A stretch of DNA of 64,000 bases from Myxococcota bacterium (GCA_036156175.1 JAYZVA010000027.1:10490-74489); one strand, 5' to 3'; shown: positions 8,848 through 60,825, counted from the first letter of the stretch. Program-made: numbers and translations. The notes: generated by a model not told the origin, from the sequence alone.

Positions 8848-9603
8848 ATGACCATCGACGCCGTCGCCCGAACCGACCCCGGACCCGTTCGCGAGAGCAA
8901 CGAGGATTGCTTCTTGGTGGACGTCGAGTCGGGGCTGTTTGTCGTCGCGGACGGAATGGGGGGCCACGCCTCCGGCGAGATCGCAAGCGCCATTGCCGTT
9001 GAAGCGGTCCAGTCGGTGTTGCTCGGCGAGGTCAACCCGGACGAAACCCGCCTCGACCGCTCCAGCATGGACCAAGAGGAAGAGATTCGCGAGCGGCTGC
9101 GGTACGCCATGAATCAAGCGTCCATTTCGATCCGCCAAGCGGCGATGGCCAACCCGGTTCACGCGGGCATGGGCACCACGCTGGCCGTGCTGTTGATCGA
9201 GGACGACGAAGCGCACCTTGGTCACGTCGGCGACAGTCGCATCTACCTCTTTCGGGACGACCGGCTGCACCGGCTGACCCGGGACCACACCGTGGTTCAA
9301 CAAGAAATCGATGCCGGAACCCTCACGCCTGAACTCGCACGAATCGTGCCTCACAAGAACATCCTTACGCAGTCCGTAGGGTATCACGGGCCCGTGGAGC
9401 CCGATACATGCACCCGCCCCATTGACAGCGGCGACGTGTTCATTCTGTGTTCAGATGGCCTGACGGACCCCCTCGACGACGACGCGCTTGCCGACATCTG
9501 CCGAAGCCATCCGCCCGAGGACTTGGCCGAGGTGCTGGTGCAGAAAGCCATCGCCAACGGAACCGAAGACAACGTGACGGTGGTGGCGGTGCACATCGAG
9601 TAG
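8848..9603 (+). CDS. PP2C-family Ser/Thr protein phosphatase
   Basis: RTDPGPVRESNEDCF, VVADGMGGHASGEIAS, VGDSRIYL and CSDGLTD are classic PPM/PP2C motifs. Confidence 0.93.
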   Translation: MTIDAVARTDPGPVRESNEDCFLVDVESGLFVVADGMGGHASGEIASAIAVEAVQSVLLGEVNPDETRLDRSSMDQEEEIRERLRYAMNQASISIRQAAMANPVHAGMGTTLAVLLIEDDEAHLGHVGDSRIYLFRDDRLHRLTRDHTVVQQEIDAGTLTPELARIVPHKNILTQSVGYHGPVEPDTCTRPIDSGDVFILCSDGLTDPLDDDALADICRSHPPEDLAEVLVQKAIANGTEDNVTVVAVHIE

Positions 9604-46673: not shown

Positions 46674-46718
46674 GATGACTCCAAAATGCTCGGAATTCCC
46701 CCTATGGAGAATGCCCCC

Positions 46719-46737
46719 AAAAAGCAACTAAGTTGCT
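46719..46737 (-). terminator. Weak hairpin plus short U-run between metG and the oxoamine synthase gene
   Basis: Minus strand reads AGCAAC-TTA-GTTGCT followed by TTTTGGGGG. Confidence 0.3.
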
Positions 46738-46844: not shown

Positions 46845-48827
46845 CTATCCGACCGTGCTGCCGAAATTCACGCCCGGGTCAACGGTGACCAAGCCCTCGA
46901 GTTCCGACCCCGTCGCGGCGAGCAACATGCCTTCGCTCAGAACGCCTCGAAGCTTGCGAGGCTTGAGGTTCGCGACGATCACGATTTTCTTCCCGACCAG
47001 ATCGTCGGGCGAGTACTTCGCCGCTATGCCCGCCACGATGGAACGGGGCCGATCTTCGCCGACCTCCACCTTCAGCGCCAGCAGGCGATCGGCGTTTGGG
47101 TGCTTCTCTGCTTCAACAATTTCGCCAACTTTGAGCTGGACCTTCAGGAAGTCTTCGAACTGAATGTACGGATTGGATTGTTCGGCTTCTTCTGCCACGG
47201 GGGCCTCCTGTTTCTGTTTCTTGGCCACCGCTTTCGCAGCAGCTTGTTCGGCCTTTTCGGGCAACGCCCCGGCCAGCACGGTTTGAATGCGTTCGGGCAG
47301 CTCGGCCATGCGTGGAAAGAGCGGTTCACCCGCATCGACTGCAGCATGGGTCGTCAGCTGGTCCAGCGACTGAACGCCGCTCACGGTCAGGTCGACCATG
47401 CCCAACTTCGAGGCCAATTCCCGCCCTTTGTTGGGGGCAACTGGGCTCAACAACACGGCCGCCACTCGGCAGATCTCCAGACACCGACGCATGACGCCAG
47501 CCAGACGGTCGGATGCACCCTCTCGATTGAGCTTCCACGGCTCCATGTCGTCGATGTACTTGTTGCCGGCTTGAACCAAGGTCCACAGCGACTCCAGCGC
47601 GGCGGCGATCTGCATGCCTTCGATGCGGCGGCAGAACCCCTCGACCGCCTCATCGGCAACCCGCTGCAGCGCGTTGTCGGCGTCGGTGTTGTCGTCCAAG
47701 GGCGGCACCGCGCCGCCCAGCCACTTGGTGGTCATCGACAGCGCGCGGTGGGCCAGGTTTCCCAGGTCATTCGCCAAGTCCGCGTTGTAGCGGGTCATGA
47801 ATCCCGTGTGGGAAAAATCGCCGTCGGCACCAAATGCGATCTCCCGCATCAGGAAATAACGGACCGCGTCGGATCCGTAGCAGTCGATGAGCAGGTGTGG
47901 ATCCACCACATTGCCGATGGACTTGCTCATCTTGTTGCCCTCGATGGTCCACCACCCGTGCGCATACAGGCACTTCGCTGGACTCAACCCCATCGCAAAC
48001 AACATGGTCGACCAGTACACCGAGTGAGTGGTGAGGATGTCCTTGCCCACGAGGTGGTAGCTTGCCGGCCACCAACGTTCGAAGTCCGGAGTGGAGCCGC
48101 CGGGGTGGTACCCGATCGCCGAGATGTAGTTGAGCAGCGCATCAAACCACACGTAGGTCACGTATTCGGGATCCATGGGAAACGGAATGCCCCAGGGAAG
48201 ACGGGTCTTGGGGCGGCTGATGCAGAGATCGCCCACGTCTTTCTTCAGGTAGCCCAGCACCTCGTTCTTTCGCGAGGCGGGTCGCAGAAAATCGGGGTGC
48301 TCGGCGATGTACGCGCGGAGCCGATCGGCGTACTTCGACATCCGAAAAAAGTAGTTCTTTTCCTTGATCCACTCGACCTTGGTGCCGGTGTCCGGGCACT
48401 TGCCGTCCACCAGGTCCTTCTCCGTCCAGAACCGCTCGGCGCTGGTGCTGTACCAGCCTTCGTAGTCCGCCGTGTAGATGTCGCCGTTGTCGACCAACGT
48501 CTGCAGGACGTCCTGAACCACCCGGGTGTGCCGCGGTTCTGTGGTTCGGATGAAGTCGTCGTGCTGGATGTCCATGCGCGCCCACAGCGCCTTGAACGGC
48601 TCGCACAGTTCATCCACGTGCTGCTGGGGACTGATGCCCCGCTTGGCGGCGGCCTCAAAGACCTTCTGGCCGTGTTCGTCGGTTCCCGTGAGGAAGTACG
48701 CCGGCCGACCGTTCAGCCGGTGCCATCGCGTGACCACATCGGCGGCAATCGTGGTGTATGCATGGCCCAAGTGCGGCTTGTCGTTCACGTAATAGATGGG
48801 CGTGGTGATGTAGAAATTGTCGGTCAC
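46845..48827 (-). CDS. metG: Methionyl-tRNA synthetase with a C-terminal tRNA-binding (Trbp111/EMAPII-like) domain
   Basis: Start moved to GTG 48827 (AAGGAG 6 nt upstream), giving VTDNFYITTPIYYVNDKPHLGHAYT (HIGH-class motif). Also KMSKSIGN. The C-terminus reads VGEIVEAEKHPNADRLLALKV. Confidence 0.94.
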   Translation of the reverse strand: MTDNFYITTPIYYVNDKPHLGHAYTTIAADVVTRWHRLNGRPAYFLTGTDEHGQKVFEAAAKRGISPQQHVDELCEPFKALWARMDIQHDDFIRTTEPRHTRVVQDVLQTLVDNGDIYTADYEGWYSTSAERFWTEKDLVDGKCPDTGTKVEWIKEKNYFFRMSKYADRLRAYIAEHPDFLRPASRKNEVLGYLKKDVGDLCISRPKTRLPWGIPFPMDPEYVTYVWFDALLNYISAIGYHPGGSTPDFERWWPASYHLVGKDILTTHSVYWSTMLFAMGLSPAKCLYAHGWWTIEGNKMSKSIGNVVDPHLLIDCYGSDAVRYFLMREIAFGADGDFSHTGFMTRYNADLANDLGNLAHRALSMTTKWLGGAVPPLDDNTDADNALQRVADEAVEGFCRRIEGMQIAAALESLWTLVQAGNKYIDDMEPWKLNREGASDRLAGVMRRCLEICRVAAVLLSPVAPNKGRELASKLGMVDLTVSGVQSLDQLTTHAAVDAGEPLFPRMAELPERIQTVLAGALPEKAEQAAAKAVAKKQKQEAPVAEEAEQSNPYIQFEDFLKVQLKVGEIVEAEKHPNADRLLALKVEVGEDRPRSIVAGIAAKYSPDDLVGKKIVIVANLKPRKLRGVLSEGMLLAATGSELEGLVTVDPGVNFGSTVG

Positions 48828-48942
48828 CCCAATCTCCTTGGTCGCAGGCCCGAAGGGATAGCACGCGGGCATGGCGTCGCAAGCAAGACCGATCGGCTGT
48901 CACCCGCTTGTGGCTGTCTTTGCGGCTGGATAAACCCCCGCC

Positions 48943-49917
48943 ATGGTCTCTGCACTTGGGTACATCACCGAATCCTTCGACCCCGCTTCGCCCGGGCGGC
49001 TGTGCCGTGGTCGGGAACGGTGGATTGAGTACGAGACCATGGAAGAAGACCTCGCCGAGGGCTCCATTCATCGGATCGTGTTGTCCGGTGCCACCTTCAG
49101 CGACGACCGTGCCCGAGACGCCCAGCGGGGCATCGGTTTTGGGCCCATTGACCATTACGGGTTGATGCGGCAGCTGATGGGCGAGGGCATGCTGGTGGCG
49201 TACTGCGAAGAGGGCCACCCCCACGAGATCCCCGAGGGGGCCGCGGGCGTGGAACACCACACCGTTGCACGGCCGGGCGGAAGCCTGCGAGAGTGGCGCG
49301 TGCGCTGGCACCTGCACGTGGAAACGCGCGACCAGCTGGAGCGCGCGCTGAGCACGGGGGCTGACGTGTTTGTCACCATCACCGAACCCGCGAAAACGCC
49401 CGCCCAAACCGTTCCCGAGTCGCCGCTCATTCCGCAGCTGGCCGACGAGGCGTCCTCGCTGCCCAGCTTGTTCGACGACGGCTTCGCCAGCGCGCTGTTC
49501 CTGCTCACCGGATTCCGTTCGGAGGGGCGCCCAAACCGGTACTTCCAGCCGTGGGGCGTCCCCGCGGTTCTGGAGCACGTCCCGGCAGTCGCGCTGATTC
49601 ACAGAGACAAGCACGGACCCGCCCTGGGAATCTACGGACGCGAGCCGTTCAGCGTCGATGGGCTCCACTCCTCGCCAAGCGATGAGTCCGGGTCGCACCC
49701 GCTGCTGGTCCCGTTTGCCATTCCGCCCATGCTCGCCCGGTGGGACCGGGCGCTCTCCGAACTGCGCGAGGTGTGGGACGAGTCCTCCTTGGGACCGTTC
49801 CCGGTTCCCGCGGCCGAGCCGAGGCTCAGCCCCGCCGATGAGGAGGCGACGACCGAGCCGGTCGACGCGGAAGACGCCCCTGCGCTCGCAGAAAACGCGG
49901 CACCCATCGAAGAATAG
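48943..49917 (+). CDS. Hypothetical protein (324 aa), acidic C-terminus
   Basis: Third-position G/C is high on manual codon reading and the composition looks normal. The antisense 436-aa ORF is Arg/Gly-rich. No recognisable family. Confidence 0.6.
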   Translation: MVSALGYITESFDPASPGRLCRGRERWIEYETMEEDLAEGSIHRIVLSGATFSDDRARDAQRGIGFGPIDHYGLMRQLMGEGMLVAYCEEGHPHEIPEGAAGVEHHTVARPGGSLREWRVRWHLHVETRDQLERALSTGADVFVTITEPAKTPAQTVPESPLIPQLADEASSLPSLFDDGFASALFLLTGFRSEGRPNRYFQPWGVPAVLEHVPAVALIHRDKHGPALGIYGREPFSVDGLHSSPSDESGSHPLLVPFAIPPMLARWDRALSELREVWDESSLGPFPVPAAEPRLSPADEEATTEPVDAEDAPALAENAAPIEE

Positions 49918-49927
49918 GCGCCCGCCG

Positions 49928-50602
49928 TCAGGTGCTGGTACCGAACCGCTCCGGGGTTCCATCATCGGTCGTGAGCGCGCTCTTTCGACGGCTCAGCAAC
50001 TTCGACATGAAGAGGCGCCGGTCGGTGCTGACCCGTCCGTCGGTTCGACGCGAGTGAACTTCTGTGTACACACCAATGTCGTCAAAGCCCATGTCCATGT
50101 ACATGTCGTACGACCGGTTTCTCACTGCGCTGACCCGCAGAACGACGTGGGTGTATTTTTGATGGTCGATGAGGTCGAGTCGCTGGGTCACGAGGGTCTT
50201 GCCCAGCCCAGCCCCGCGGGCAGACTCGAGGACGCCGAGCTCTGCCAAGTAATAGGAGTGGGGAACCGGAAGCAGCCCGCGCAGGTCTCGGGCAATGTCG
50301 GGTTTGCTGCTCGCGGGCACGCCGATGCCAAACCCAACCACCTTGGCGCGGCCCCGAACGGCGAGCATGCAGATGTTCTCGGGCGTCGACAGGTACCGAC
50401 GCAGGATGGCCTGGGCCTCCGACGGGAAGTACCGCTCGTTGTACGGGGGCTCCGAGAAAATGTCTTGATACGCACCGGCAAAGCTTGCCCGGTAGGGCAA
50501 AGCCTCGTCCGGCGACGCAATTCGGACAATTCGGATGCCATCTGGGCGTTCGAGGAGGATCACACCCCGATGTTTACGCGCGCGACAAGAACGCGCAAAC
50601 AA
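49928..50602 (-). CDS. GNAT-family N-acyltransferase, immediately downstream of the megasynthase
   Basis: Acyl-CoA pocket LAELGVLESARGAGLGKTLV, in a 224-aa alpha/beta-sized protein. The track start is TTG, 8 nt after the PKS stop. An alternative GTG start lies at 50563. Confidence 0.78.
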   Translation of the reverse strand: MFARSCRARKHRGVILLERPDGIRIVRIASPDEALPYRASFAGAYQDIFSEPPYNERYFPSEAQAILRRYLSTPENICMLAVRGRAKVVGFGIGVPASSKPDIARDLRGLLPVPHSYYLAELGVLESARGAGLGKTLVTQRLDLIDHQKYTHVVLRVSAVRNRSYDMYMDMGFDDIGVYTEVHSRRTDGRVSTDRRLFMSKLLSRRKSALTTDDGTPERFGTST

Positions 50603-50610
50603 TCAAGTGA

Positions 50611-53600
50611 TCACGAGGCCAACCAAGCGACCGCAATCACCATCGATTGGTCATCCTGAATGTCGACCGACAGCTCGCCACCGCCCAGCGCAGCGTGCCG
50701 CTGACTGGCTTGACCGTACAAGCGAACTTCGGCCCGCCCATCGGCGATGTTCAACACTTCTACGTCCCGAGGGTCAAGCTGCAAGCCGGTCCCCAATGCC
50801 TTCAACACGGCCTCTTTGATCGCCCATACTTGACTCTCGCGCCGGGGATCGCCCTGGCACATCGCGCGCTCGCTGACCCGAAACCAGGTTTCCGAAAACG
50901 ACGGTGCCCGGGCCTCGATTCGTTCCAGGTCCACGCCTGCCCGCCCGGCGGACGTCGCGATGGCGATCGCTTCGCCATCGCGGTGCGAAATCGAGACGTG
51001 GGGAAGCTCCACGCCCTCCAGCGTCACGGCATACGGCTCGCCGGATGCCCGATTTTCAATGCGAAAGGTCTGCGGGTCCATTCCGGTCAACTGAACCAAA
51101 GCGCGCTTTGCCGCCACCCGTCCCAGGGTTCGATCCGACTGGCGCTTCTCGGTTCCCCGTTCGGCAATGACGGCCCGCTCGCGGTCGGTCAAGAGCGCGG
51201 AAGCGTCCGCTTCCGCGTCCTCTGCCTTGACCCGAGCAATGACCGCGGGAGACCAGCCGCCTGCTGGGGGTTCAAACCCGCCGTCGGGCGGAAGCGGTCC
51301 GGCTTGAACCATCTCAAACCCGCGAAGACGCAGCACCCGACCCCGTTCGGTGGACACGTCCACGTCGTAGGCGCTGCCCTGCGCGCGAACGGTGAGGTGC
51401 AGTGCTTCGTCATCGCGCACCGAGCCGCACACATCCACGCTGCCAATGGCGCGGGGGAGCGCCATGATGCCGTCGAGCATCATGCCGTGCAGTCCCGCCG
51501 CCTGAAACGCGGCCTCGAGGACCAACGGGGCGGTGGCCATCCCGCCCGCAATTCCCAGGTGCCGAACTGCGCCTTCGGCCAGCAGCCCATCCGACGTGAC
51601 CCCCGTGACCCGGTTCAACACTTGAAATGCGGGCCCGTGGAAGAAGCGAGCGTAGATCTCGTCCCCGCTCACGGGGTGGTCGGGCATGCCCATCGGGGGA
51701 AGGTCCGCAGCATCAGTGGGCACCCAGACCACCGTTGCCGAGAAGTGTTTGGTCTCGATCACGCGTCCCGTTCGTGCGGTTCGAGACGACGACACGGTGC
51801 ACTGCACGCCCCCGTCTGCAGGGGTGGCCGTCACCACAACCGTGGTCGGGGCATCGCCGTGGAGCTTGATCGGAGCCTCGTACACCACGTTCCGAGCGCC
51901 GGCATACCGGTGACCCGGGTCGGCCATCGCCGCGACGGCCGCCATCATCTCCAACCCCACCACGCCGGGCAACACCGGCTTTCCATCAATGGCGTGATCG
52001 GCAATCCACGGATCCGAAACGAGGCTCAACGAACGGGTTCCGATGATCGATTCGCCATCCATCTCCACCCCATCGATCAGGGGGTGAGCGGGAGCAATGC
52101 CGAAGTCGCCGAGGCGCCCCGACACGACCACCTCTCCCACAAGCTTTGCAGCTACCATGTCCACCAACAGCTCGGAGCCCGGTCCCGCAGGCAGCATTTC
52201 CACGCCCCGGTCGCCAAGCAGCTTGTCCATCCCCCCGCGCACGGCCATTCCCACATCCGCCCAGGCCGTCCAGTCGACATGGAGGGAAGCGGGTCGGGCA
52301 AAACAAACCTGCGCCATGGCTTCGTTTGCAGCCGAATAGTCGACTTGTCCCGGGTTTCCGAAGCGACCGGCGACCGATCCCATCGAAACGAAGAATGCCT
52401 CCGGTTCCAACGCCTCGGCCAGGGCCAGTCCGCCGACCGCCTTCCCGTCGTACACGCGGTGGAATCCGCCCGCATCTTTGTCTTCGATCAAGCGGCTCTC
52501 TTCCACACCGGCGCCGTGGACCAACACATCGATGGGCCCAAACGACGTCCGGACCCGGTCAAGGCAGGACCGAACGGCTTCCGGGTCGGCCAAATCGACC
52601 TGGAAGAATTCAACCTCGGCGCCCATGGCGCGCATGGCTTCCACATTCCTGCGGGCTTCCTCGGCGCGCTTCAGGGGTGCCACGATGTCGCGAACCGCCG
52701 CGGGCGTCGCCCGCATCCCCGATTCCTCCAGCGAAGCCTTCGCGCTGGCTTTGGCCGCCGCTTCGTCGAGGGGTTCGGTGCCCGGCGCCGTGCGCGCGAG
52801 GAGCGCGAGTTTGGACACACCGCGGCCGGCAAACGCTTTGGCGACCTGAGCGGTGATGCCCCGGGTTCCGCCCGTCAACGCCACAACCGATGCGGTCAGC
52901 GCAGCGCCTTGCTCCGGAAAGTCCATCAACTGCAATTCCACCGCCGTGCGACCGTCGCTGCCCCACGCGATTTCGATGGAGCCGTCGTTGGTGCCAAGCT
53001 CTTCAATCACGAGGGCCGCCGCGGTCTCCACATCCATGGATCGATCGACGTTCACCACGCGAGCCGCGGTGCCGTCCCACTCTCGACCAACCGCTTTGGC
53101 AAACCCAGCGGTGGACCCGAAATCTCGGCCCGTGACGGGATCGACCGCAACCCGTCCCACGTGGGCCGCGCACACCCAGTCGCGGGGACGGGCCTCGGCC
53201 ACGCTCTGGGCCTGTTCGAAGCTCTCAAACACATCCGTGCCAGCATCAATGATGGCATCGGGTGGGCCGTCGAGCCGGCCGCCCTTGGCGACCACCGCCG
53301 TCCGAATTGCATCCGCGAGCGGTGTGGTGCCCAAGACGGTGACGATGCGCCCTTTGATGGTGCCCATCTGCCACGGCGGACGCGCCACCCCGATTGGCCT
53401 CCGCAATCGGAAGCTGGCCGGCAGCGCGCCGCGGTCGGACTGCACCGTCGCCGCTAAGGGAGCCGGCGGAGCGGCATCGGCGTTTGGTGGCGGAGCCGAT
53501 TCCACCACCGGATCGACGTTGGGTGCGCTGTTTTGACTGGCCGCTTGGGCCTGCAACCAGCCGGCCAACGCTTCGATCGTGGGGTAGTCCGACAGCCGGA

Positions 53601-56600
53601 AGCTCTCGTCGGCGGCGAGGCCGTACTGCTCCCGCACCTGTCCAAAGATCTCCGCTTGCTTCACCGTGTCGATGCCCAGGTCGGCTTCGAGTTCGTAGTC
53701 CGGCTCCAACTCATCGGGGCCGTAGCCGGTCTTCTCCGAAATGACGGCCAGCAGCTCGCTCAGCACATCGCTGGCCGAACCGAGCTGCGGCGCGGCCTCG
53801 GGCGGCTCGACAACGGCCGGCTCGATGCCCGCATCGGCCGCCGCCGCCTCGGTGACCCTCAAGTGCCGCTGGTGCTCCGCCAACGTCGGCTCGGCCAATC
53901 CGCTGACCCGCTTGAGCCACTCGCGGTGCGTGGCCGCGTCGGCGATTCGGTGTTCCGCGTGGGCCAAGCCTTCCCATGCCAGCAATGCCAGCTGGGAGCC
54001 GAATCCCGCCGCCAGGCGAATTCCGTACCGCACCGGCACCGCACCTCCGCGGGACAGTCGAAGATCGCCAAGGTCCGGGTCGGGCTGCTTCAGGTGGGGA
54101 ATGGGCGGAACCCGGCCATACTGCAGGGCTTTCAAGACGACCGTGTCTTCGATGCCCGCACCCATTGGGTGACCGGTGAATCCTTTGGTGTTCGTCACCA
54201 CAACGTTGGAGGCAGCGGCACCGAATGCGCGGCGCAGGCTCTCGATCTCCGCAGCCGCCGAGCCGCCTTTGGCGGGCGTGTAGGTCTCGTGACTCATGAA
54301 CACGGCCGATGCCGCGAACTCGTCGCGGGACACGCCAGCCCGCTCCACCGCCTCGGCGACCAGGGCGTCCATTTCCGTCGCGATGTGCTCGGGATTCAAG
54401 CGCGTTCCATGAAAGGCCGAGTTGGCGAATCGAGCCGCCAACAAGCGCCCCAGAGGCACAATGCCCCGGGCGGATGTGGACGCCTCGGATTCCACCACAA
54501 GCCCCGCGGCTCCCATGCCCAGGATCATGCCGTGGCGGCGGGCATCGAACGGGAGTGCGGCATCCTCGACCACGTCCTTGGTCGTGGCGGCACCGGTGGC
54601 CAAAAATCCGGTTCCAATCCATTCCATCAAGGCGTCCGAGGTCACATCGTCCGCACCCACCACAATCACGCGTTCGCACCGGCCCACGCGAATCCAGTCC
54701 GATGCCATCGCCACCGCCTGGGTGGTGCTCGCACAGGCAGCGTTGGTGGTGGCATTGGGGCCCTGTGCGCCGATGTATTGCGCAAACTGAGAGTGCCCCA
54801 TGGCGAGCACTTGAAACAGGAATCGCCGATCAAAGTTGCCTTCGTCATCGCGACCGTCTGCCCGCATGTGCTTGGCAAACTCGTCGTATCCCGGGAATGC
54901 GGACGCAAAAATCACCCCTGTGGAGCGGCGCATCTCCTCGGGCAGCTTCCATCCCGTCGACACCTTCTTGCCGCTTCGCGTGGTGTGAAAGGTCTGCACC
55001 AGGGGAATCTGGGCATCCTTGAGCGCCTCGATCCCCGCCGCAAACGACAACTGAGTGGTGATGTCGAGTGCGCGAACCCATTGGGGGTCAATGCCGTACT
55101 GTTCCGCCAGGTCGAAGGCCGCCTTCACGCCGGCCAATCGAATGACTTCCTCGCGTTGCTCGACGGACTTGAAGGTGCCCTGGCCGGTCTTGGGGTCTTT
55201 GTGAACCCGAACGACCTGTTTGGCCAAAAAGCCGTCCTGTGTGGCCTCGCTGAGCCGCGAGATTCGAACTTCACCGTCCAAGATGCGCGCCACATTGTCG
55301 GGAGCGAACACCTCTTCGCCGCCGGGCAGCCCGACCGATGCGCCGGAGCAGACCACGCTGATGGAGGCGGGAACGACTGCCGGTGCAGAGCGGGGAGCCG
55401 CCGGGACCGGTGCAGGGGCGGACGGCTCAAGCGGCGCCGGCACGGGGGCGGGCGGCGTCAACGGTGCCGGTCGCGCTTCGAGCATGGTCTGAACCAATCC
55501 CCGAACGGCGGGCAAGATGGACGCCGCGAACTGATTGGCGTCGCCATCGCTCAAACCGGCGCGCGCCGCCCCTTCGGCCAATGCAGACAAAGCGTCGTGG
55601 GGAAGCTCCCCTCCGACCGTCGGCCGCTCGGACCCAACCGCAACCCGGCCGCGGGTATCCACCAACACCTGCTCAATGGCGGCGGGTTGCGTGGACCCCA
55701 ATCGACGGGCGGCGTAGTTGGCGAGATCCCGCAGCGTCCGATGCTGACTCAATCGAAAGCCGGGATCGTGGTCCAGGCGGAACCGATCCCGAACGTGGGC
55801 GATGACCTCGGCCTGCTTGACGGTATCGATCCCCAAGTCCGCTTCCAGCTCATCGTCCAAATTCAGTTCTTCCGGTGAGTAGCCGGTGGCCATCGCCACA
55901 ACGTCAAGCACCGCGCGCAGGATGAATGGGGTCGCCTGAGGCTGCGTCGGCCGGCCTTCGTCCACGGGTGCTGGGGTCCACTTGCGCATCGCCGCAGACG
56001 TGGCCAAACGCGGCGGCGGAGGGGCGAAGATGTCGGGGATGGCGGCGCCCGGATGGGCGGAGACATCAAACCCGAGCGTGGTCAGCGACGCCAGCGCGTC
56101 TTGAAAGCTCGCCACACCGCCACGCTTGGGGTGATTGGTGTAGATGGCGCGGTGGGGCCGGCGCTTCAAGATGGATGCAACAAACCCCGTGAGCGCCCGT
56201 TTCGGGCCGCACTCGATGAAGATGCGAGCGCCGTCGGCGTACATCCGCTCCACCTGAGCGATCCATTCCACGGGGGCGGCGACCTGCTTCGCCAGGATGT
56301 CGATGATCTCGGCGCGCGCGTCCGCGCCATCGGGGTAATAGCGGCTGGTCACGTTGGTGGTGATCGGCCGCTGCGGAGGCCGGATGTCGAGACGCTCAAG
56401 CACCGTCTTCAGCGGCGCCGAGGCCGGGGCCACAATGCTGGAGTGAAACGCGTGACTCACGGGCAGCGGGTACACGGTGATGCCCCGCGAGACGAATGCC
56501 TCAATCGCCGCCTCGACCGGCTCCGACGCACCGGCGATGACGGTTTGCGTGGCGCAGTTTTTGTTGGCCGGCACAACGTACCCGGGGATCTCCGCCAGCA

Positions 56601-59568
56601 CCTCCTGGACCTTGTCCACGCTGGCTGCGATCCCCGCCATCCGGCCCTTGTCGTCGATCTGAACCCCGGCCATCTCCCGACCCCGGGCACTGACCGCCAC
56701 CAACGCATCACGGAAGCTCAAAATGCCCGCCGCGACCGCCGCCGCGTACTCGCCCAGGGAGTGCCCCGCCACCATGTCCGGAAGAATCCCGTGCGCGGCC
56801 AACAGCCGCAGGATCGCCACGTCGACGGTCAGCGTGGCCGGCTGCGAGATCTCCGTGTCCCGAAGCCGCTCGAACTGCTCTTCTTCGGGAATTTCGGGGT
56901 TGCGTCGGATGAAATCACGAAGGGGTCGCCCAAGTTCGGGCGTCATCACTTCGTCCGCTTCATCAAACGTCGCCGCGACAACCGGGTACATTTCGGCCAA
57001 GTCCAGACCCATGTCGATGTACTGCGATCCTTGGCCGGTGAACAAAAACGCCACTTTGCCGTCGTAGGGCGATTCCTCGACGTGAATGCCCCGCCCGCGC
57101 AGCAGCTCCGTAGAACCGTTCTTTCGCAGCACCTTCAACGCCCGCTCAACCTGATCCCGACGGCTCGCTGAATCCGGAGCAGCAGCAGCCAACCGAATTG
57201 GTGCGGAGGGATCGAAGGGCGCGCTGGTCGACGATTCAAGCGCGCGAATCAGCCCGGGGCGATCCGTGGCACTCACACCCCAGACCCACGCCGGCAGGGG
57301 CCGGTCTTCCAACGCCGGAAGCGGCGACCGACCCGGCGAAGCGGCCGCGGTCGCTGGACCGCGATCCTCTTCCAAGACAACGTGAAAGTTGGTGCCCCCG
57401 AACCCGAACGCGCTCACGCCCACCCGACGCGTCGGGCCATCGGGCCATGCCTCTGTCGACGTCTGGACCGCAAGAGGAACCGCGTCAAATGGTACATCTG
57501 AACGGGCATTATTGAAATTGATGGTCGGAGGGAAGGTCTTGTTATGGAGGGCCAATGCGGCCTTGATGCAACTCGCGGCACCGGCGGCAGACTTCAGGTG
57601 GCCGATGTTTGACTTCACGGAACCAATGCGAATGGGGCCCCGATCGCCGCGACGGCCGGCGCCAATCACCGCGGAAATGCTCTCCACCTCCACCTTGTCG
57701 CCGACCACAGTCGACGTCCCGTGGCATTCGATCAGATCCACATCGACGGGATCAATGCCCGCGGCCGCGTAGGCCCGCTCGAGCGCCAGCCGTTGCCCTC
57801 GAGGGTTGGGCGCCGTGATGCCCTTGCCCTTGCCATCACTCGACGCACCGATGCCCTTGATCACCGCGTAGACACGGTCGCCATCACGGTGGGCGTCTCG
57901 GAGTCGCTTGAGCACAAGAACGCCCGCTCCCTCGCCCATGACAAAGCCGTTTGCATCCCGATCAAAGGGCGCCGAATGATTGGGGGACAACGCGCCGATC
58001 TTGCAGAACTTCGTGTACGTCGGAACGCCCATCGATCGGTCTGCACCACCGGTTACGCACATGTCAATATCGTTGCTCTGAAGTGCCTTTACAGCTGCCT
58101 GTATCGCTGCCATTGAGCTGGCACATGCGGCGTCGACCGTGAAGTTGGGGCCGCACAGGTCAAAGGCATTGGCCACCCGGCCCGCGATCACATTGGACAG
58201 CTCACCCGGCATCGAGTCTTCATTGATGATCGGCAAGTCGCCCTTCACACCGGCTTCGAACCCATCCAGGATGGCGGTCTGTGTGTCGGGGTCGAGTTCG
58301 GCGAACTCCGGCAGCGACTTCAGGGCCTCTTTGAATGCTGGAACTCGGGTTCGGACCACGTAGTCATCCGTCACCTCACCACCCATCGAGTTCCCAAGGA
58401 TGACGCCGACCCGGGTCCGGTCGAATTGCCGATCCTTCCCGTATCCGGCGTCTTCGAGGGCCTCGCCCACGCTCTCGAGCGTGATCTGCTGAACGACCGC
58501 CACTTGCTTCGCGACGTTCGGAGGAATCCGAAACCGCCGGGAGTCAAAGGTGAATCCCTGAAGAAAGCCACCGATTTTCGCGTAGGTCTTGTCCGGCGCG
58601 GTTTTGTCTTCGTCCCAAAACAGTTCCGGGTCCCACCGCTCCTCCGGGACGTCGATGATCGCGCTCTTTCCGTTCACCAAGTTGTCCCAGTACGCGGCGA
58701 CGCTCAACGCACCGGGCAGACGGCAACCGAGACCGATGATCGCCACGGGTTCCTCGCGCTCGCCCGCCAAATCTGCGGCGGCGGGGCTCCGGGTCGGCCG
58801 CCGCACGGGAGCCGTCTGGGGCGTTTCCGATGCGACGGTGTAGGCCCCCAATAAGCCCGTGATTGTGCGGTGCTCCTTGGCCAAATCGATGGCTTGACGG
58901 ACCCCGGGACCCACCGGCCACGCCACCCGGCCCAGGTCGCCGTCCGCAAACCAGTTGGTTGCCAGATCCCAGTATCCCTCGCCATCGAGAAGCCGTCGAA
59001 GAACCGGGGACAACGGCGATGCGGCAATTTGGAAGCCATTGACCACGTGAAACGAACCGCCATCGAGTCGGCCCAATCGCTCCATCATCTGTTTCGGAAG
59101 ACCAATTTCATCGAGCCCAAGCAGGACTTCGGACAACACGACGCCTTCGGCACCGGAGGCCAAGGCGACCGCCGCGTCGCTCGGGCTGAGCCCGGCATCC
59201 AAGATCACGCGCTGGTCGCGTGCGACCCGACTCAGCATCTCCAAACCGCTCAATGCGCCACACGGACCGCCCACCTCTGCGCCCCGCAACACCGCTCCGG
59301 CGAAGCCCGCGGGAAGCGGACCGGGCTCGGTCACTTCCAACCAGGTCTCGCGGTTTCGCACCGGTGCTTTGTGGTTCCCAGCCAAGATGACCGGACCGAC
59401 TCCCGGGACGCTTCGGCGCGTCCGGACGCGGACCCATGCCCCTTCGGGCACGCTGGTCGTCGGGCTGCAGGTAAAGTCCAAAACGGGAATTGCTCCCACG
59501 CTCTGGACGGCCTCAGCAAGCGATGCTCGCTCACCAGGAAGTACGCAGAAAAACGCGCGCTTTGGCAT
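50611..59568 (-). CDS. Multidomain Pfa/PKS-like megasynthase (2,985 aa): ER-like, KS, AT, ACP, KS, ACP, KR, DH, PPTase
   Basis: Track ORF 50611..60141 trimmed to MPKRAFFCVLPG (CAT at 59566-59568, GGAGG 4 nt upstream). The 191 upstream codons overlap the divergent response-regulator gene and are low-complexity. Domain motifs are listed in the sub-features below. Confidence 0.93.
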   Translation of the reverse strand: MPKRAFFCVLPGERASLAEAVQSVGAIPVLDFTCSPTTSVPEGAWVRVRTRRSVPGVGPVILAGNHKAPVRNRETWLEVTEPGPLPAGFAGAVLRGAEVGGPCGALSGLEMLSRVARDQRVILDAGLSPSDAAVALASGAEGVVLSEVLLGLDEIGLPKQMMERLGRLDGGSFHVVNGFQIAASPLSPVLRRLLDGEGYWDLATNWFADGDLGRVAWPVGPGVRQAIDLAKEHRTITGLLGAYTVASETPQTAPVRRPTRSPAAADLAGEREEPVAIIGLGCRLPGALSVAAYWDNLVNGKSAIIDVPEERWDPELFWDEDKTAPDKTYAKIGGFLQGFTFDSRRFRIPPNVAKQVAVVQQITLESVGEALEDAGYGKDRQFDRTRVGVILGNSMGGEVTDDYVVRTRVPAFKEALKSLPEFAELDPDTQTAILDGFEAGVKGDLPIINEDSMPGELSNVIAGRVANAFDLCGPNFTVDAACASSMAAIQAAVKALQSNDIDMCVTGGADRSMGVPTYTKFCKIGALSPNHSAPFDRDANGFVMGEGAGVLVLKRLRDAHRDGDRVYAVIKGIGASSDGKGKGITAPNPRGQRLALERAYAAAGIDPVDVDLIECHGTSTVVGDKVEVESISAVIGAGRRGDRGPIRIGSVKSNIGHLKSAAGAASCIKAALALHNKTFPPTINFNNARSDVPFDAVPLAVQTSTEAWPDGPTRRVGVSAFGFGGTNFHVVLEEDRGPATAAASPGRSPLPALEDRPLPAWVWGVSATDRPGLIRALESSTSAPFDPSAPIRLAAAAPDSASRRDQVERALKVLRKNGSTELLRGRGIHVEESPYDGKVAFLFTGQGSQYIDMGLDLAEMYPVVAATFDEADEVMTPELGRPLRDFIRRNPEIPEEEQFERLRDTEISQPATLTVDVAILRLLAAHGILPDMVAGHSLGEYAAAVAAGILSFRDALVAVSARGREMAGVQIDDKGRMAGIAASVDKVQEVLAEIPGYVVPANKNCATQTVIAGASEPVEAAIEAFVSRGITVYPLPVSHAFHSSIVAPASAPLKTVLERLDIRPPQRPITTNVTSRYYPDGADARAEIIDILAKQVAAPVEWIAQVERMYADGARIFIECGPKRALTGFVASILKRRPHRAIYTNHPKRGGVASFQDALASLTTLGFDVSAHPGAAIPDIFAPPPPRLATSAAMRKWTPAPVDEGRPTQPQATPFILRAVLDVVAMATGYSPEELNLDDELEADLGIDTVKQAEVIAHVRDRFRLDHDPGFRLSQHRTLRDLANYAARRLGSTQPAAIEQVLVDTRGRVAVGSERPTVGGELPHDALSALAEGAARAGLSDGDANQFAASILPAVRGLVQTMLEARPAPLTPPAPVPAPLEPSAPAPVPAAPRSAPAVVPASISVVCSGASVGLPGGEEVFAPDNVARILDGEVRISRLSEATQDGFLAKQVVRVHKDPKTGQGTFKSVEQREEVIRLAGVKAAFDLAEQYGIDPQWVRALDITTQLSFAAGIEALKDAQIPLVQTFHTTRSGKKVSTGWKLPEEMRRSTGVIFASAFPGYDEFAKHMRADGRDDEGNFDRRFLFQVLAMGHSQFAQYIGAQGPNATTNAACASTTQAVAMASDWIRVGRCERVIVVGADDVTSDALMEWIGTGFLATGAATTKDVVEDAALPFDARRHGMILGMGAAGLVVESEASTSARGIVPLGRLLAARFANSAFHGTRLNPEHIATEMDALVAEAVERAGVSRDEFAASAVFMSHETYTPAKGGSAAAEIESLRRAFGAAASNVVVTNTKGFTGHPMGAGIEDTVVLKALQYGRVPPIPHLKQPDPDLGDLRLSRGGAVPVRYGIRLAAGFGSQLALLAWEGLAHAEHRIADAATHREWLKRVSGLAEPTLAEHQRHLRVTEAAAADAGIEPAVVEPPEAAPQLGSASDVLSELLAVISEKTGYGPDELEPDYELEADLGIDTVKQAEIFGQVREQYGLAADESFRLSDYPTIEALAGWLQAQAASQNSAPNVDPVVESAPPPNADAAPPAPLAATVQSDRGALPASFRLRRPIGVARPPWQMGTIKGRIVTVLGTTPLADAIRTAVVAKGGRLDGPPDAIIDAGTDVFESFEQAQSVAEARPRDWVCAAHVGRVAVDPVTGRDFGSTAGFAKAVGREWDGTAARVVNVDRSMDVETAAALVIEELGTNDGSIEIAWGSDGRTAVELQLMDFPEQGAALTASVVALTGGTRGITAQVAKAFAGRGVSKLALLARTAPGTEPLDEAAAKASAKASLEESGMRATPAAVRDIVAPLKRAEEARRNVEAMRAMGAEVEFFQVDLADPEAVRSCLDRVRTSFGPIDVLVHGAGVEESRLIEDKDAGGFHRVYDGKAVGGLALAEALEPEAFFVSMGSVAGRFGNPGQVDYSAANEAMAQVCFARPASLHVDWTAWADVGMAVRGGMDKLLGDRGVEMLPAGPGSELLVDMVAAKLVGEVVVSGRLGDFGIAPAHPLIDGVEMDGESIIGTRSLSLVSDPWIADHAIDGKPVLPGVVGLEMMAAVAAMADPGHRYAGARNVVYEAPIKLHGDAPTTVVVTATPADGGVQCTVSSSRTARTGRVIETKHFSATVVWVPTDAADLPPMGMPDHPVSGDEIYARFFHGPAFQVLNRVTGVTSDGLLAEGAVRHLGIAGGMATAPLVLEAAFQAAGLHGMMLDGIMALPRAIGSVDVCGSVRDDEALHLTVRAQGSAYDVDVSTERGRVLRLRGFEMVQAGPLPPDGGFEPPAGGWSPAVIARVKAEDAEADASALLTDRERAVIAERGTEKRQSDRTLGRVAAKRALVQLTGMDPQTFRIENRASGEPYAVTLEGVELPHVSISHRDGEAIAIATSAGRAGVDLERIEARAPSFSETWFRVSERAMCQGDPRRESQVWAIKEAVLKALGTGLQLDPRDVEVLNIADGRAEVRLYGQASQRHAALGGGELSVDIQDDQSMVIAVAWLAS
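50614..51219 (-). other. C-terminal 4'-phosphopantetheinyl transferase domain
   Basis: LGRVAAKRAL, ISHRDG, GVDLERIE, WAIKEAVLKALG. Confidence 0.75.
51292..52095 (-). other. PKS-type dehydratase (double hot-dog)
   Basis: HPLIDG. ADHAIDGKPVLPG fits HxxxGxxxxP. Confidence 0.7.
52102..53409 (-). other. Ketoreductase (structural plus catalytic SDR subdomains)
   Basis: ALTGGTRGIT Rossmann motif and GQVDYSAAN catalytic Tyr. Confidence 0.8.
53548..53778 (-). other. Carrier-protein domain 2, with Thr at the expected phosphopantetheine Ser
   Basis: PDYELEADLGIDTVKQAEIFGQV. The Thr codon is ACG, at 53665-53667. Confidence 0.75.
53968..55362 (-). other. Ketosynthase domain 2 (Cys/His/His retained)
   Basis: NAACASTTQAVAMA, SHETYTPAKGG, GFTGHPMGAG. 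Confidence 0.8.
55696..55929 (-). other. Carrier-protein domain 1, with Thr at the expected phosphopantetheine Ser
   Basis: LDDELEADLGIDTVKQAEVIAHV. The Thr codon is ACC, at 55822-55824. Confidence 0.75.
56152..57060 (-). other. Acyltransferase domain (malonyl-type)
   Basis: FLFTGQGSQY, GHSLGEYAA, VSHAFHS (HAFH). Confidence 0.9.
57367..58752 (-). other. Ketosynthase domain 1
   Basis: EPVAIIGLGCRLPGA, DAACASS (Cys codon at 58123-58125), ECHGTSTVVGD, SNIGHLKSAAG. Confidence 0.9.
58807..59568 (-). other. N-terminal TIM-barrel-like domain resembling NMO/FabK/PfaD-type enoyl reductases, degenerate
   Basis: LAEAVQSVGAIPVLDF, AGAVLRGAEVGGPCG (compare GxEAGGHxG), and ALASGAEGVVLSEVLLGLDE (compare LGAdGVqmGT). 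The resemblance is at motif level only. Confidence 0.4.
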
Positions 59569-59630
59569 GTGGCCTCCGCGAAGTCGGGGGCGCCTTAACC
59601 CTAGAACCGAATAAAAGGAACCCCTTCCGC

Positions 59631-59651
59631 GCGCACTCGCGACCAGTGCGC
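59631..59651. promoter_or_regulatory. 7-bp perfect inverted repeat in the 96-bp megasynthase / response-regulator divergent spacer
   Basis: GCGCACT (59631-59637), 7 nt, AGTGCGC (59645-59651). It ends 14 nt before the GTG start at 59665. Confidence 0.25.
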
Positions 59652-59664
59652 TATTCTCAGCCAC

Positions 59665-60825
59665 GTGGACCGGCGACCAATTCAAGACTTGCTGACCGAA
59701 TTGAACCTCGACAAACCGCGGTGTCGTGGCGTCTTGTTGGTGGACGATGAATTCGAGGTTTTGGCCGTCCTGGAGGCGCTGCTGGACGACGATTGGGACG
59801 TCCACACCGCGCAAAGCGGCAAGGCGGCGCTGGAGTTGTTGGAGTCCGAGCCGACGATTCAGTTGGTGATCACCGATCAACGGATGCCCGAGATGACCGG
59901 CGTCGAGTTGCTGCAGACGGTCGCCGAGTCGCATCCGGATCTGTATCGGATGGTGCTCACGGCCTACTCCGATGTGGACCCGATCGTCGCCGCCATCAAC
60001 CAAGGGAAAGTGGACCAGTTCATCCTGAAGCCGTGGGACCCCGAGCGGATTCGCACGCTGGTAGAGGAGGGGTTGGCGGTGTGCGAGCGCCGAATCGCCA
60101 TGCGCACAATCGTCGCCGAACTCACCGAGCGATTCCAACACAAGAACGCGGAGTTGAGCTCACTGAAGACCGAAGCGGAACAAGACCAAGCCAGCGCGTG
60201 GCTGGACAGCCTCGAAACGCTGGGCGCCGATGTGCTCGATGCCCTTCAACCGATCCTGACCACGGTCCAGATGGCGTGTCCAGACTCCGAGGCCATTCGC
60301 GAGTCGGCAAAACGCACGCGGTGTCTCGCCGAGGACATTCGCCGGCTGAGCGCCACGGAGCAAAAACGGGATCGAACCACGATTCCCCCCCGCAAACTCG
60401 TGAGCGATGCCGTCCGGCTGCTGGTCGATGATGCCTTCGGTCAGCACAACCCGGTGCACGTGAACATCGAACCGTCGCTCGAGTCCCTGTCCATCATCGC
60501 GGAACCGACCCGACAGGCCCTGCTGAACATGCTTCGCAACGCAATTCGCGCGTCTGAAGAAGGAAGTCCCGTACAGGTGGGGCTCCGCTCGGAGGCGGAT
60601 GGCATGTTGGTGATCGAGGTCATCGACTCCGGGATCGGCATCGCCCCCGAGCGTTTGCAAGACGCGGCTGAGCCCTTCTTCAGCGCATTCGAACCGCCCG
60701 GAAATGGCCTTGGGCTGACGCTGGTTCGCTTGGTCGCAGAGCTGCATGGCGGGCGCCTTGCGATTCTCGAGAACGATCCGAACGGCACGATTTGCCAGGT
60801 CTGGCTTCCAGCGGGGGCGGCATGA
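59665..60825 (+). CDS. Receiver domain fused to a histidine-kinase-like ATPase; the DHp segment appears to lack the phospho-His
   Basis: GTG start. REC domain: VLLVDDE, LVITDQRMPEMTG, KPW. Where the H-box is expected, the sequence reads LGADVLDALQPILTTV. CA domain: LLNMLRNAIRAS, VIDSGIGI, GNGLGLTLV. Confidence 0.83.
   Translation: MDRRPIQDLLTELNLDKPRCRGVLLVDDEFEVLAVLEALLDDDWDVHTAQSGKAALELLESEPTIQLVITDQRMPEMTGVELLQTVAESHPDLYRMVLTAYSDVDPIVAAINQGKVDQFILKPWDPERIRTLVEEGLAVCERRIAMRTIVAELTERFQHKNAELSSLKTEAEQDQASAWLDSLETLGADVLDALQPILTTVQMACPDSEAIRESAKRTRCLAEDIRRLSATEQKRDRTTIPPRKLVSDAVRLLVDDAFGQHNPVHVNIEPSLESLSIIAEPTRQALLNMLRNAIRASEEGSPVQVGLRSEADGMLVIEVIDSGIGIAPERLQDAAEPFFSAFEPPGNGLGLTLVRLVAELHGGRLAILENDPNGTICQVWLPAGAA

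What the first reader, a model, noticed from the sequence alone, without database searches (positions are those of the whole stretch)
53548..55929. Both carrier domains encode Thr at the canonical phosphopantetheine-Ser position
Seen: ACP1 reads LEADLGIDTVKQAEV, with ACC at 55822-55824. ACP2 reads LEADLGIDTVKQAEI, with ACG at 53665-53667. Different Thr codons in two copies argue against a sequencing error and for selection at the protein level.

Established: carrier proteins carry the prosthetic arm on the Ser of the (D/G)xDS(L/I) motif, and Ser-to-Thr variants are normally poor PPTase substrates.

Inference: there are three possibilities. The fused C-terminal PPTase may have co-evolved to modify Thr. 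The domains may be loaded in another way. Or they may be non-canonical, unmodified docking or structural domains.
Basis: partly seen in the sequence, partly recalled or inferred. Interest (0 to 1): 0.7.

Follow-up and report, generated by a model that had tools for sequence, protein, structure and literature searches.

The report
Carrier domains with threonine attachment site
A giant fatty-acid/polyketide-type synthase carries threonine where every characterised acyl carrier protein has the serine that holds the prosthetic arm; this holds across a very large uncharacterised enzyme family that brings its own activating enzyme, so a threonine-linked arm not described in the literature I could search is the likely explanation.

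Summary
A minus-strand gene (50611-59568, 2985 aa) encodes FabK-like ER, KS, AT, ACP1, KS, ACP2, KR, DH and a PPTase domain. Both ACPs read LEADLGIDTVKQAE, with Thr codons ACC (55822-55824) and ACG (53665-53667) at the canonical Ser position, the first residue of helix II.

It is not an error or a dead domain. In 120 homologues the site is Thr 422 times, Ser 3 times and nothing else. All four Thr codons are used across loci. The peptide EADLG[IV]DTV occurs in more than 600 stretches of species-representative genomes from several bacterial phyla and Thermoplasmatota archaea. All catalytic residues are intact and no other carrier lies in the window. Of 44 complete loci, 40 carry a homologous PPTase, fused or adjacent. 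Rare sister loci have Ser in the same motif with the same PPTase family.

Best explanation (about 0.62): Thr is the phosphopantetheine acceptor, loaded by the dedicated PPTase. This is inferred, not shown. I found no paper describing it. Intact-mass MS of the ACP with and without the PPTase domain would settle it.

The parts
50611..59568 (-). Megasynthase gene, 2985 aa from the ATG at 59568 (the ORF is open up to a GTG at 60141). Domain order: ER-like, KS, AT, ACP1, KS, ACP2, KR, DH, PPTase.
   Evidence: ORF list, translation, Pfam and NCBIfam. The start matches the annotated 3099-aa protein P0001, which has one extra ACP.
58816..59568 (-). N-terminal domain, aa 1-251, with a FabK/NMO/PfaD-like TIM-barrel fold (enoyl-reductase-like). 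The usual GGH histidine is replaced (EVGGPCG).
   Evidence: No Pfam hit. Profile hit to FabK 9pl0, E=0.01. AF2 pLDDT 94.5. Foldseek top hits are FabK, NMO and PfaD, TMq about 0.7. Conserved in more than 100 homologues.
57325..58752 (-). KS1, aa 273-748, with active-site Cys482 and both His residues present.
   Evidence: Pfam PF00109, PF02801 and PF16197; motifs.
56167..57048 (-). Acyltransferase domain, aa 841-1134, with GHSLG Ser937.
   Evidence: Pfam PF00698; motif.
55687..55932 (-). ACP1, aa about 1213-1294, motif LEADLGIDTVKQAEV.
55822..55824 (-). Thr1249 codon ACC, at the canonical phosphopantetheine-Ser position of ACP1.
   Evidence: alignment to solved ACPs.
53884..55362 (-). KS2, aa about 1403-1895. 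It is a second, catalytically complete ketosynthase (Cys1612, His1760, His1800), not a chain-length factor.
   Evidence: Pfam second stretch. The Cys-His-His triad is invariant in 111 homologues.
53530..53775 (-). ACP2, aa about 1932-2013, motif LEADLGIDTVKQAEI. It sits in the tandem-array position, which holds 1-5 copies in homologues.
53665..53667 (-). Thr1968 codon ACG, at the canonical phosphopantetheine-Ser position of ACP2 and the first residue of helix II in the model.
52258..52884 (-). Ketoreductase domain, aa 2229-2437.
   Evidence: Pfam PF08659 and PF00106.
51319..52086 (-). PKS-type dehydratase domain, aa about 2495-2750, with HxxxGxxxxP His2525.
   Evidence: Pfam PF21089; motif.
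50614..51318 (-). C-terminal integrated PPTase domain, aa 2751-2985. Motifs: VSISHRD; GVDLERIEAR (Mg-binding Asp2880 and Glu2882, plus the subfamily Arg2887); WAIKEAVLK (Glu2919, Lys2923).
   Evidence: Pfam PF01648. PDB hits to the fungal FAS PPT domain, AcpS and Sfp. Alignment with Sfp. Subfamily statistics.
49928..50602 (-). GNAT-family acyltransferase gene directly downstream. It is a conserved partner of this synthase subfamily and a candidate off-loading enzyme (inference).
   Evidence: Pfam PF00583. An orthologue immediately follows the synthase in 13 loci.

Best explanation
The two domains are working acyl carrier domains of a self-contained iterative FAS/PKS-like megasynthase. The prosthetic arm is attached to Thr (Thr1249, Thr1968) instead of Ser. 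The synthase's own C-terminal PPTase domain transfers 4'-phosphopantetheine from CoA to the Thr hydroxyl at the N-terminus of helix II, giving O-(4'-phosphopantetheinyl)-threonine. The holo-ACPs then shuttle malonyl and acyl thioesters between the two KS domains, AT, KR, DH and possibly the FabK-like N-terminal domain. The adjacent GNAT may release the product. Thr is a fixed trait of a large clade of PUFA-synthase-like 'secondary lipid' synthases, and that clade always travels with one particular PPTase subfamily. Shown here: the sequence facts, the family-wide conservation, the ACP fold, the intact catalytic residues and the co-occurrence with the PPTase. Inferred: that Thr is actually modified, that the cognate PPTase does it, and that the GNAT has an off-loading role.
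For: (1) Thr aligns with the Ppant Ser of solved ACPs and is the first residue of helix II in a confident model.
(2) The site is Thr 422, Ser 3 and nothing else in 120 homologues, and 252 Thr to 3 Ser in 82 loci. Only hydroxyl-bearing residues are tolerated, while the Thr codon drifts (ACG 132, ACC 114, ACA 3, ACT 3).
(3) Rare sister loci have all-Ser ACPs with the same LEADLGIDSVKQAE signature and a homologous PPTase. Ser and Thr therefore interchange at the functional position.
(4) KS1, KS2 (Cys-His-His invariant in 111 of 111), AT, KR and DH all keep their catalytic motifs. There is no other ACP or PPTase in the 64 kb, so the enzyme needs these domains as carriers.
(5) ACP copy number varies from 1 to 5 in tandem, as in PUFA synthases.
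(6) A homologous PPTase is fused or lies within 10 kb in 40 of 44 complete T-ACP loci. Its Mg-binding Asp and Glu and its WxxKExxK motif are invariant.
(7) In the 145 nearest PPTase representatives, all 17 fused proteins with detectable ACPs carry only Thr (47 to 0).
(8) The trait spans several bacterial phyla and archaea in more than 600 genome stretches, so it is old and maintained.
Against: There is no biochemical evidence here or in any paper I could find. I know of no precedent for a Thr-linked phosphopantetheine. E. coli AcpP S36T is non-functional in vivo, so an ordinary PPTase or partner does not tolerate Thr. I could not identify a structural basis for Thr acceptance. The one sequence correlate is an Arg five residues after the DxE Glu. 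It is present in 98% of the 56 T-associated PPTases, in none of 5 S-associated ones, and not in Sfp. This correlate is phylogenetically confounded and may only contact the acidic ACP surface. One homologue (L004) ends just before the PPTase domain, so the fused domain is not strictly indispensable in cis.
Confidence: 0.62

Rival explanations
1. Thr is phosphopantetheinylated, but with no special co-evolution. Sfp-type PPTases in these organisms are loose enough to take Ser or Thr, and the Thr is a neutral, frozen family accident.
For: Ser and Thr ACPs coexist in the same polypeptide in P0005, P0043 and P0079 and in L088. S-type sister synthases use the same PPTase family. All PPTase catalytic residues are canonical.
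Against: A neutral Ser/Thr site should drift back and forth, yet Thr is held at 99% across phyla while its codon changes. The next residue is Val in 465 of 466 Thr sites. The PPTase is almost always carried along, which suggests that host PPTases do not suffice. E. coli S36T AcpP is inactive.
Confidence: 0.13
2. The domains are not modified. They are structural or docking modules, and the substrates are carried otherwise, for example as CoA thioesters or on a trans ACP encoded elsewhere.
For: The defining Ser is absent. No modification has been demonstrated. One homologue lacks the fused PPTase domain.
Against: Unmodified scaffolds would not restrict the site to Thr or Ser only (0 of 425 other). 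They would not keep the whole DLGIDTVKQAE recognition helix nearly invariant. They would not multiply in tandem arrays, and they would not keep an intact dedicated PPTase. There is no other carrier in the window.
Confidence: 0.08
3. The Thr hydroxyl carries something other than a standard Ppant arm. Examples are a direct O-acyl (oxoester) intermediate, or a different CoA-derived or nucleotide-derived group transferred by the PPTase-like domain.
For: The hydroxyl is clearly required, and nothing here defines what is attached.
Against: The PPTase domain keeps the canonical Mg and CoA catalytic motifs. KS, AT, KR and DH are standard thioester-dependent domains. There is no precedent that I know of.
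Confidence: 0.06
4. Sequencing or assembly artefact, or a pseudogene.
For: The window comes from an uncultured lineage and appears to have one ACP repeat fewer than a near-identical MAG.
Against: The two sites use independent codons. The same residue occurs in hundreds of independent assemblies, including cultured Amycolatopsis, Planobispora and Nonomuraea genomes. The 9-kb ORF is intact with all motifs.
Confidence: 0.01

Closest known systems
PUFA synthase PfaA and its tandem ACP array (TIGR02813; ACP motif LGIDSIKRVEI, recalled from established knowledge)
   Same: Best NCBIfam match. KS-AT...ACPn-KR-DH layout. Variable tandem ACP copies. The ACP signature is very similar (KTGY...LEADLGID-x-[IV]K..E). 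The system depends on a dedicated PPTase (PfaE).
   Different: Thr-Val instead of Ser-Ile at the attachment site. The score is below the family cutoff (826.5 against 1010.1). A second active KS and an extra ACP sit inside the same polypeptide. The DH is PKS-type rather than FabA-type. The ER-like and PPTase domains are fused. There are no pfaB, pfaC or pfaD genes nearby.
Shulse and Allen 2011 'Type R' (and the M-T group) uncharacterised secondary lipid synthases: KS-MAT-CLF-ACP(3-6)-KR plus PPTase in Acidobacteria, Elusimicrobia and Chloroflexi (PMC3098273)
   Same: An Elusimicrobiales locus with that layout (L055: KS-AT-...-ACP5-KR-DH, then PPTase, then carboxyltransferase) has five DTVKQAE ACPs. 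The phylum spread matches. The PPTase motif hShxH reported for Types M-T matches VSISHRD.
   Different: The window protein adds ACP1, a FabK-like N-terminal domain, a fused PPTase and a GNAT partner. The 'CLF' here has an invariant Cys-His-His triad. The paper does not mention Thr (0 occurrences).
Fungal type I FAS alpha-subunit C-terminal PPT domain (4v58, 2was) and enediyne PKSE (KS-AT-ACP-KR-DH-PPT; recalled from established knowledge)
   Same: An integrated C-terminal PPTase that activates the carrier of its own polypeptide. The fungal FAS PPT is the best solved-structure match to this domain (E=1.6e-7). The ...KR-DH-PPT tail resembles PKSE.
   Different: Those systems modify Ser. There is no second KS, no tandem T-ACPs and no FabK-like domain.
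E. coli AcpP S36T and canonical ACP/AcpS/Sfp chemistry
   Same: Same fold and same position.
   Different: In E. coli the Ser-to-Thr change gives a non-functional ACP (PMC9456370). Here Thr is the conserved wild-type state.

Membership tests
Carrier protein / PP-binding (PF00550) | Profile match above the curated cutoff | tested here: met
   56.4 bits against a cutoff of 20.8, two stretches.
Carrier protein / PP-binding (PF00550) | Four-helix ACP fold with the attachment residue at the N-terminus of helix II | tested here: met
   AF2 pLDDT 88.7, with helix II starting at residue 37, the Thr. Foldseek matches to ACPs at TM about 0.8.
Carrier protein / PP-binding (PF00550) | Ser in the (D/G)xDS(L/I) motif as Ppant acceptor | tested here: not met
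   Thr at both sites. Thr 422 to Ser 3 in the family.
Carrier protein / PP-binding (PF00550) | Actual 4'-phosphopantetheinylation | not testable with these tools
   Needs MS or radiolabelled or fluorescent CoA assays.
PUFA synthase PfaA (TIGR02813) | Score at or above the curated cutoff | tested here: not met
   826.5 against 1010.1, and only profile positions 5-902 covered in the best stretch.
PUFA synthase PfaA (TIGR02813) | Tandem ACP array between AT and KR | tested here: inconclusive
   Homologues have 1-5 tandem ACPs. The window has one in that position, and an active KS intervenes between AT and the array.
PUFA synthase PfaA (TIGR02813) | Partner genes pfaB, pfaC, pfaD and pfaE in the cluster | tested here: not met
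   Neighbours are a GNAT, MetRS, a BioF/Spt-like enzyme and two-component proteins. The ER-like and PPTase functions are fused instead.
4'-phosphopantetheinyl transferase superfamily (PF01648), Sfp-like or integrated type | Profile match above cutoff, with Mg-binding Asp and Glu and the W/FxxKE(A/S)xxK motif | tested here: met
   60 bits against a cutoff of 25. GVDLE and WAIKEAVLK align with Sfp D107, E109, E151 and K155.
4'-phosphopantetheinyl transferase superfamily (PF01648), Sfp-like or integrated type | Transfers Ppant to the cognate carrier (here to Thr) | not testable with these tools
   Only co-occurrence is shown.
Shulse-Allen Type R secondary lipid synthase | KS-MAT-CLF-ACP(3-6)-KR in one protein, followed by a PPTase gene | tested here: not met
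   The window has an extra ACP1, an active KS2 rather than a CLF, a DH, an ER-like domain and a fused PPT. A related locus, L055, does fit. The window is therefore a relative of Type R, not a member.
Enediyne PKSE | KS-AT-ACP-KR-DH-PPT single-module layout and a PKSE-clade KS | not tested
   The layout differs (two KS domains, an ER-like domain). No KS phylogeny was made.

The most novel reading that the evidence does not exclude
O-(4'-phosphopantetheinyl)-threonine is a natural post-translational modification not described in the literature I could search. It would be the standard carrier chemistry of a widespread clade of self-activating lipid or polyketide megasynthases found in Myxococcota, Actinomycetota, Elusimicrobiota, Acidobacteriota, Chloroflexota and Thermoplasmatota archaea, among others. 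A dedicated PPTase subfamily, marked by a DxE-x4-R signature, would install it, making these synthases orthogonal to host AcpS/Sfp and possibly resistant to Ser-specific holo-ACP hydrolases.
Probability: 0.45. Interest if true: 0.85.

Novelty: new variant of a known kind. Interest (0 to 1): 0.68.

Why it matters
The Ser acceptor is treated as a universal rule of carrier-protein biochemistry, and it underlies motif-based annotation and every 'S-to-A dead ACP' control. A large, phylogenetically broad enzyme family that fixes Thr instead would add a new modification and a new PPTase specificity. It could also explain why this family has no known products: routine Sfp or AcpS co-expression may not activate these enzymes, and the products of bacterial PKSs with C-terminal PPTase domains remain unidentified (PMC6042109). 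A Thr-specific PPTase and tag pair could be an orthogonal protein-labelling tool. The question can be tested directly with one small expression construct and a mass spectrometer.

Tried and rejected
- Artefact or pseudogene: rejected. The codons are independent and hundreds of assemblies agree.
- KS2 as a chain-length factor: rejected. The Cys-His-His triad is invariant in 111 of 111 homologues.
- Another conserved Ser in the ACP as the real acceptor: rejected. The alignment has no invariant or near-invariant Ser, and the conserved KTGY and PT(I/L) motifs are Thr-containing.
- A separate canonical ACP or PPTase in the window: none found.
- The BioF/Spt-like gene (45411-46727) as part of the system: rejected. 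It is conserved only in the two closest loci.
- Literature: six searches for the motif, for Thr-phosphopantetheinylation and for family names found nothing relevant.
- A structural reason for Thr acceptance: I only obtained a sequence correlate, Arg2887. No coordinates or complex modelling were available, so this stays a lead.
- RerA/RerB of Rhodococcus (PMC11563203): a characterised tandem-ACP iPKS with a dedicated PPTase. The part of the paper I read does not state the ACP acceptor residue and my residue search of it failed, so it says nothing either way about Thr.


Full report
**1. What is in the sequence**

The finding lies inside one long minus-strand ORF (50611-60141). Read from the ATG at 59568 it encodes 2985 aa. 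This start agrees with the annotated 3099-aa protein of a 99%-identical Myxococcota MAG (P0001, GCA_036131855.1).

Pfam finds KS (273-685), AT (841-1134), two PP-binding stretches, a second KS, KR (2229-2437), a PKS-type DH (from 2495) and a 4'-phosphopantetheinyl transferase domain (2878-2962). The best NCBIfam model is PfaA, but the score is below its cutoff (826.5 against 1010.1).

The two carrier stretches translate as ...LEADLGIDTVKQAEV... and ...LEADLGIDTVKQAEI.... The Thr codons are ACC at 55824..55822 and ACG at 53667..53665.

**2. Is the Thr really at the attachment position?**

phmmer against solved structures pairs the Thr with the Ser of DS(I/L) in the PigH ACPs, PksA ACP, Thermus ACP and mitochondrial ACP. 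An AlphaFold model of ACP2, built on 20 family sequences, has pLDDT 88.7, and helix II begins exactly at the Thr. The model superposes on many ACP structures at TM about 0.8 and rmsd 1.5-2.0 A.

No other residue of the domain is an invariant Ser. The domain is a canonical ACP in every respect except Ser to Thr.

**3. Family trait or accident?**

A search of 5.8 billion proteins returned 120 full-length relatives. They are 2.0-3.9 thousand aa long, come mostly from Myxococcota and 'Deltaproteobacteria' MAGs, and include one labelled Thermoplasmatota.
- They hold 1-5 ACP copies each.
- The acceptor position is Thr 422 times, Ser 3 times and never anything else.
- Thr is followed by Val in 465 of 466 cases.

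- The lineages include Myxococcota, Bradymonadia, Bdellovibrionales, many Actinomycetota, Elusimicrobiota, Acidobacteriota, Chloroflexia, Spirochaetota, Thermodesulfobacteriota and Thermoplasmatota archaea.
- The Actinomycetota include cultured Amycolatopsis sp. NPDC021455, Planobispora takensis and Nonomuraea rosea.
- Across the fetched loci the Thr codon is ACG 132, ACC 114, ACA 3 and ACT 3. The codon drifts while the amino acid is held.

The converse scan of 241 million metagenome records, for the Ser version (DLG[IV]DS[IV]KQAE, TCN codons only), found just 11 stretches. Several of these are all-Ser synthases with the layout AT-ACP2-3-KR-DH, followed by a PPTase of the same subfamily. The position therefore accepts only hydroxyl residues, and Thr is the dominant state of a large, old clade.

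**4. Is the enzyme alive, and does it need these carriers?**

The catalytic residues are all present:
- KS1 Cys482 and its His residues.
- KS2 Cys1612, His1760 and His1800, invariant in 111 of 111 homologues, so KS2 is a true KS and not a chain-length factor.
- AT Ser937, the KR Rossmann motif and DH His2525.

The N-terminal 251 aa have no Pfam hit but are conserved in more than 100 homologues. They model confidently (pLDDT 94.5) as a FabK/NMO/PfaD-like TIM barrel (Foldseek TMq about 0.7; weak profile hit to FabK). The usual GGH His is replaced, so activity as an enoyl reductase is uncertain.

HMM scans of all six frames of the 64-kb window find no other ACP and no other PPTase. The synthase thus has every domain of an iterative FAS/PKS cycle, and only the Thr-ACPs can carry substrates.

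**5. The PPTase link**

The C-terminal 235 aa match the integrated PPT domain of fungal FAS (E=1.6e-7), AcpS and Sfp. They keep the motifs G-x-D-x-E, (S/T)-x-S-H and W-x-x-K-E-A-x-x-K. These align with what I recall as Sfp's Mg-binding residues D107 and E109 and its catalytic residues E151 and K155.

An HMM of this domain finds a homologue in 55 of 82 T-ACP loci and in 40 of 44 loci with full 10-kb flanks. The domain is fused in the Myxococcota, Bradymonadia and archaeal forms. In Actinomycetota, Elusimicrobiota and Chloroflexia it is a separate 200-300 aa gene (for L055 and L033).

Searching 1.84 billion representatives with the domain gives 676 relatives at E<=1e-10. All 17 fused representatives that contain ACPs have only Thr (47 to 0).

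One residue separates the groups. An Arg five positions after the DxE Glu (GVDLERIEAR, Arg2887) is present in 98% of 56 T-associated PPTases and in 133 of 145 nearest representatives. In the five S-associated PPTases it is Phe, Val or Pro, and in Sfp it is Ile. This is only a lead. The Ser sample is tiny and phylogenetically confounded, and the Arg could simply contact the acidic ACP surface.

**6. Most likely mechanism**

The simplest reading is that the Thr hydroxyl is the phosphopantetheine acceptor and that the dedicated PPTase installs the arm, in cis in this protein. The synthase then works like a PUFA-synthase/FAS hybrid.

Steps that are shown:
- the position of the Thr and the ACP fold;
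- conservation restricted to Thr or Ser;
- intact catalytic machinery;
- obligate company of one PPTase subfamily.

Steps that are inferred:
- the modification itself;
- which enzyme performs it;
- any advantage of Thr.

I would guess at two advantages. One is orthogonality to host AcpS and Sfp-type enzymes, consistent with E. coli AcpP S36T being non-functional (PMC9456370). The other is greater resistance of a secondary-alcohol phosphodiester to beta-elimination or to holo-ACP hydrolases. Both are speculation.

Because Ser and Thr ACPs coexist in some polypeptides (P0005, P0043, P0079; L088), the PPTase probably accepts both rather than Thr alone.

**7. Context and likely product**

A GNAT acyltransferase gene (49928-50602) follows the synthase directly. 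It does so in 13 related loci as well. There is no thioesterase, so the GNAT is a candidate off-loading N-acyltransferase; this is inference only.

The surroundings are housekeeping genes: MetRS, LeuRS, MnmG, kinases and two-component proteins. This is a two-gene unit rather than a large secondary-metabolite cluster.

Actinobacterial relatives instead sit beside a giant acetyl-CoA carboxylase and an acyl-CoA dehydrogenase. The Elusimicrobia relative sits beside a carboxyltransferase. The product is unknown.

**8. Comparison with what is known**

The closest described systems are these:
- PUFA synthase PfaA: similar ACP signature and tandem arrays, but Ser.
- The uncharacterised 'Type R' and related Types M-T secondary lipid synthases of Shulse and Allen 2011. 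Their phyla, their layout KS-MAT-CLF-ACPn-KR plus PPTase, and their PPTase motif hShxH all match the relatives found here. That paper does not mention Thr.
- Integrated PPTases of fungal FAS and enediyne PKSE.

Kim et al. 2018 note that the products of bacterial PKSs with C-terminal PPTase domains are unidentified.

Six full-text searches, including the peptide motif itself, found no report of a Thr acceptor or of Thr phosphopantetheinylation. The library lacks many subscription papers, so prior mention cannot be excluded.

**9. Verdict**

It is the rule for a widespread enzyme clade, not a peculiarity of one gene. The interpretation 'a dedicated PPTase modifies Thr' is the best supported (about 0.6) but untested. 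I rate it a new variant of a known kind (carrier protein and PPTase chemistry), with interest 0.68.

Noticed in passing
window 53530-53775, compared with L002 15800-16400: The window gene is 99% identical to that of GCA_036131855.1 but lacks exactly one 342-bp (114-aa) ACP repeat unit, giving 2 ACPs instead of 3. This is either a collapsed tandem repeat in one assembly or a real recombination between ACP copies.
   Followed up: partly
window 58816-59568 (-): The N-terminal 251 aa have no Pfam hit but fold as a compact FabK/NMO/PfaD-like TIM barrel that is conserved in more than 100 homologues. The canonical GGH histidine is replaced (EVGGPCG), so whether it is an active enoyl reductase is open.
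   Followed up: partly
window 49928-50602 (-): A GNAT acyltransferase gene immediately follows the synthase here and in 13 related loci (L001-L009, L011, L015, L016, L039). There is no thioesterase anywhere, so it is a possible chain-release N-acyltransferase.
   Followed up: partly
window 45411-46727 (-): An alpha-oxoamine synthase whose best matches are serine palmitoyltransferase and BioF/Kbl models, all below their cutoffs. It lies three genes from the synthase and is conserved only in the two closest loci. An unrelated Ser-type synthase locus (L085) also has an Aminotran_1_2 gene directly upstream.
   Followed up: partly
window 50908-50937 (-), PPTase motif GVDLERIEAR: Arg2887 is 98% conserved in PPTases associated with Thr-ACPs. 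It is absent from five PPTases associated with Ser versions of the same ACP type, and from Sfp. It is a candidate specificity determinant, but phylogenetically confounded.
   Followed up: partly
L004 4037-13918: One Myxococcota homologue (MAG.533) ends about 20 residues into the PPTase region, with the GNAT gene following directly. This looks like natural loss of the fused PPTase, or an assembly or frameshift problem.
   Followed up: no
L025, L030, L036, L037, L072: Contigs binned as Thermoplasmatota or Methanobacteriota archaea carry synthases of about 3000 aa with Thr-ACPs and a fused PPTase. These could be horizontal transfers of a self-activating unit into archaea, or binning errors. I did not check the neighbouring genes.
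   Followed up: no
L033 3090-18882; L055 14600-16880: Actinobacterial Thr-ACP synthases are flanked by a 1817-aa multidomain acetyl-CoA carboxylase and an acyl-CoA dehydrogenase. The Elusimicrobia version is followed by a PPTase and a carboxyltransferase. The systems seem to carry their own malonyl-CoA supply.
   Followed up: no
window 48943-49917 (+) / 48655-49965 (-): An ORF of about 324 aa between the GNAT and MetRS has no Pfam or NCBIfam hit. It is annotated as a gene in L002 (324 aa, opposite strand to the synthase).
   Followed up: no
window 1942-9031 (-): Two adjacent large Ser/Thr protein kinases with AAA_16 and TPR regions, typical of Myxococcota. They are unrelated to the finding.
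   Followed up: no
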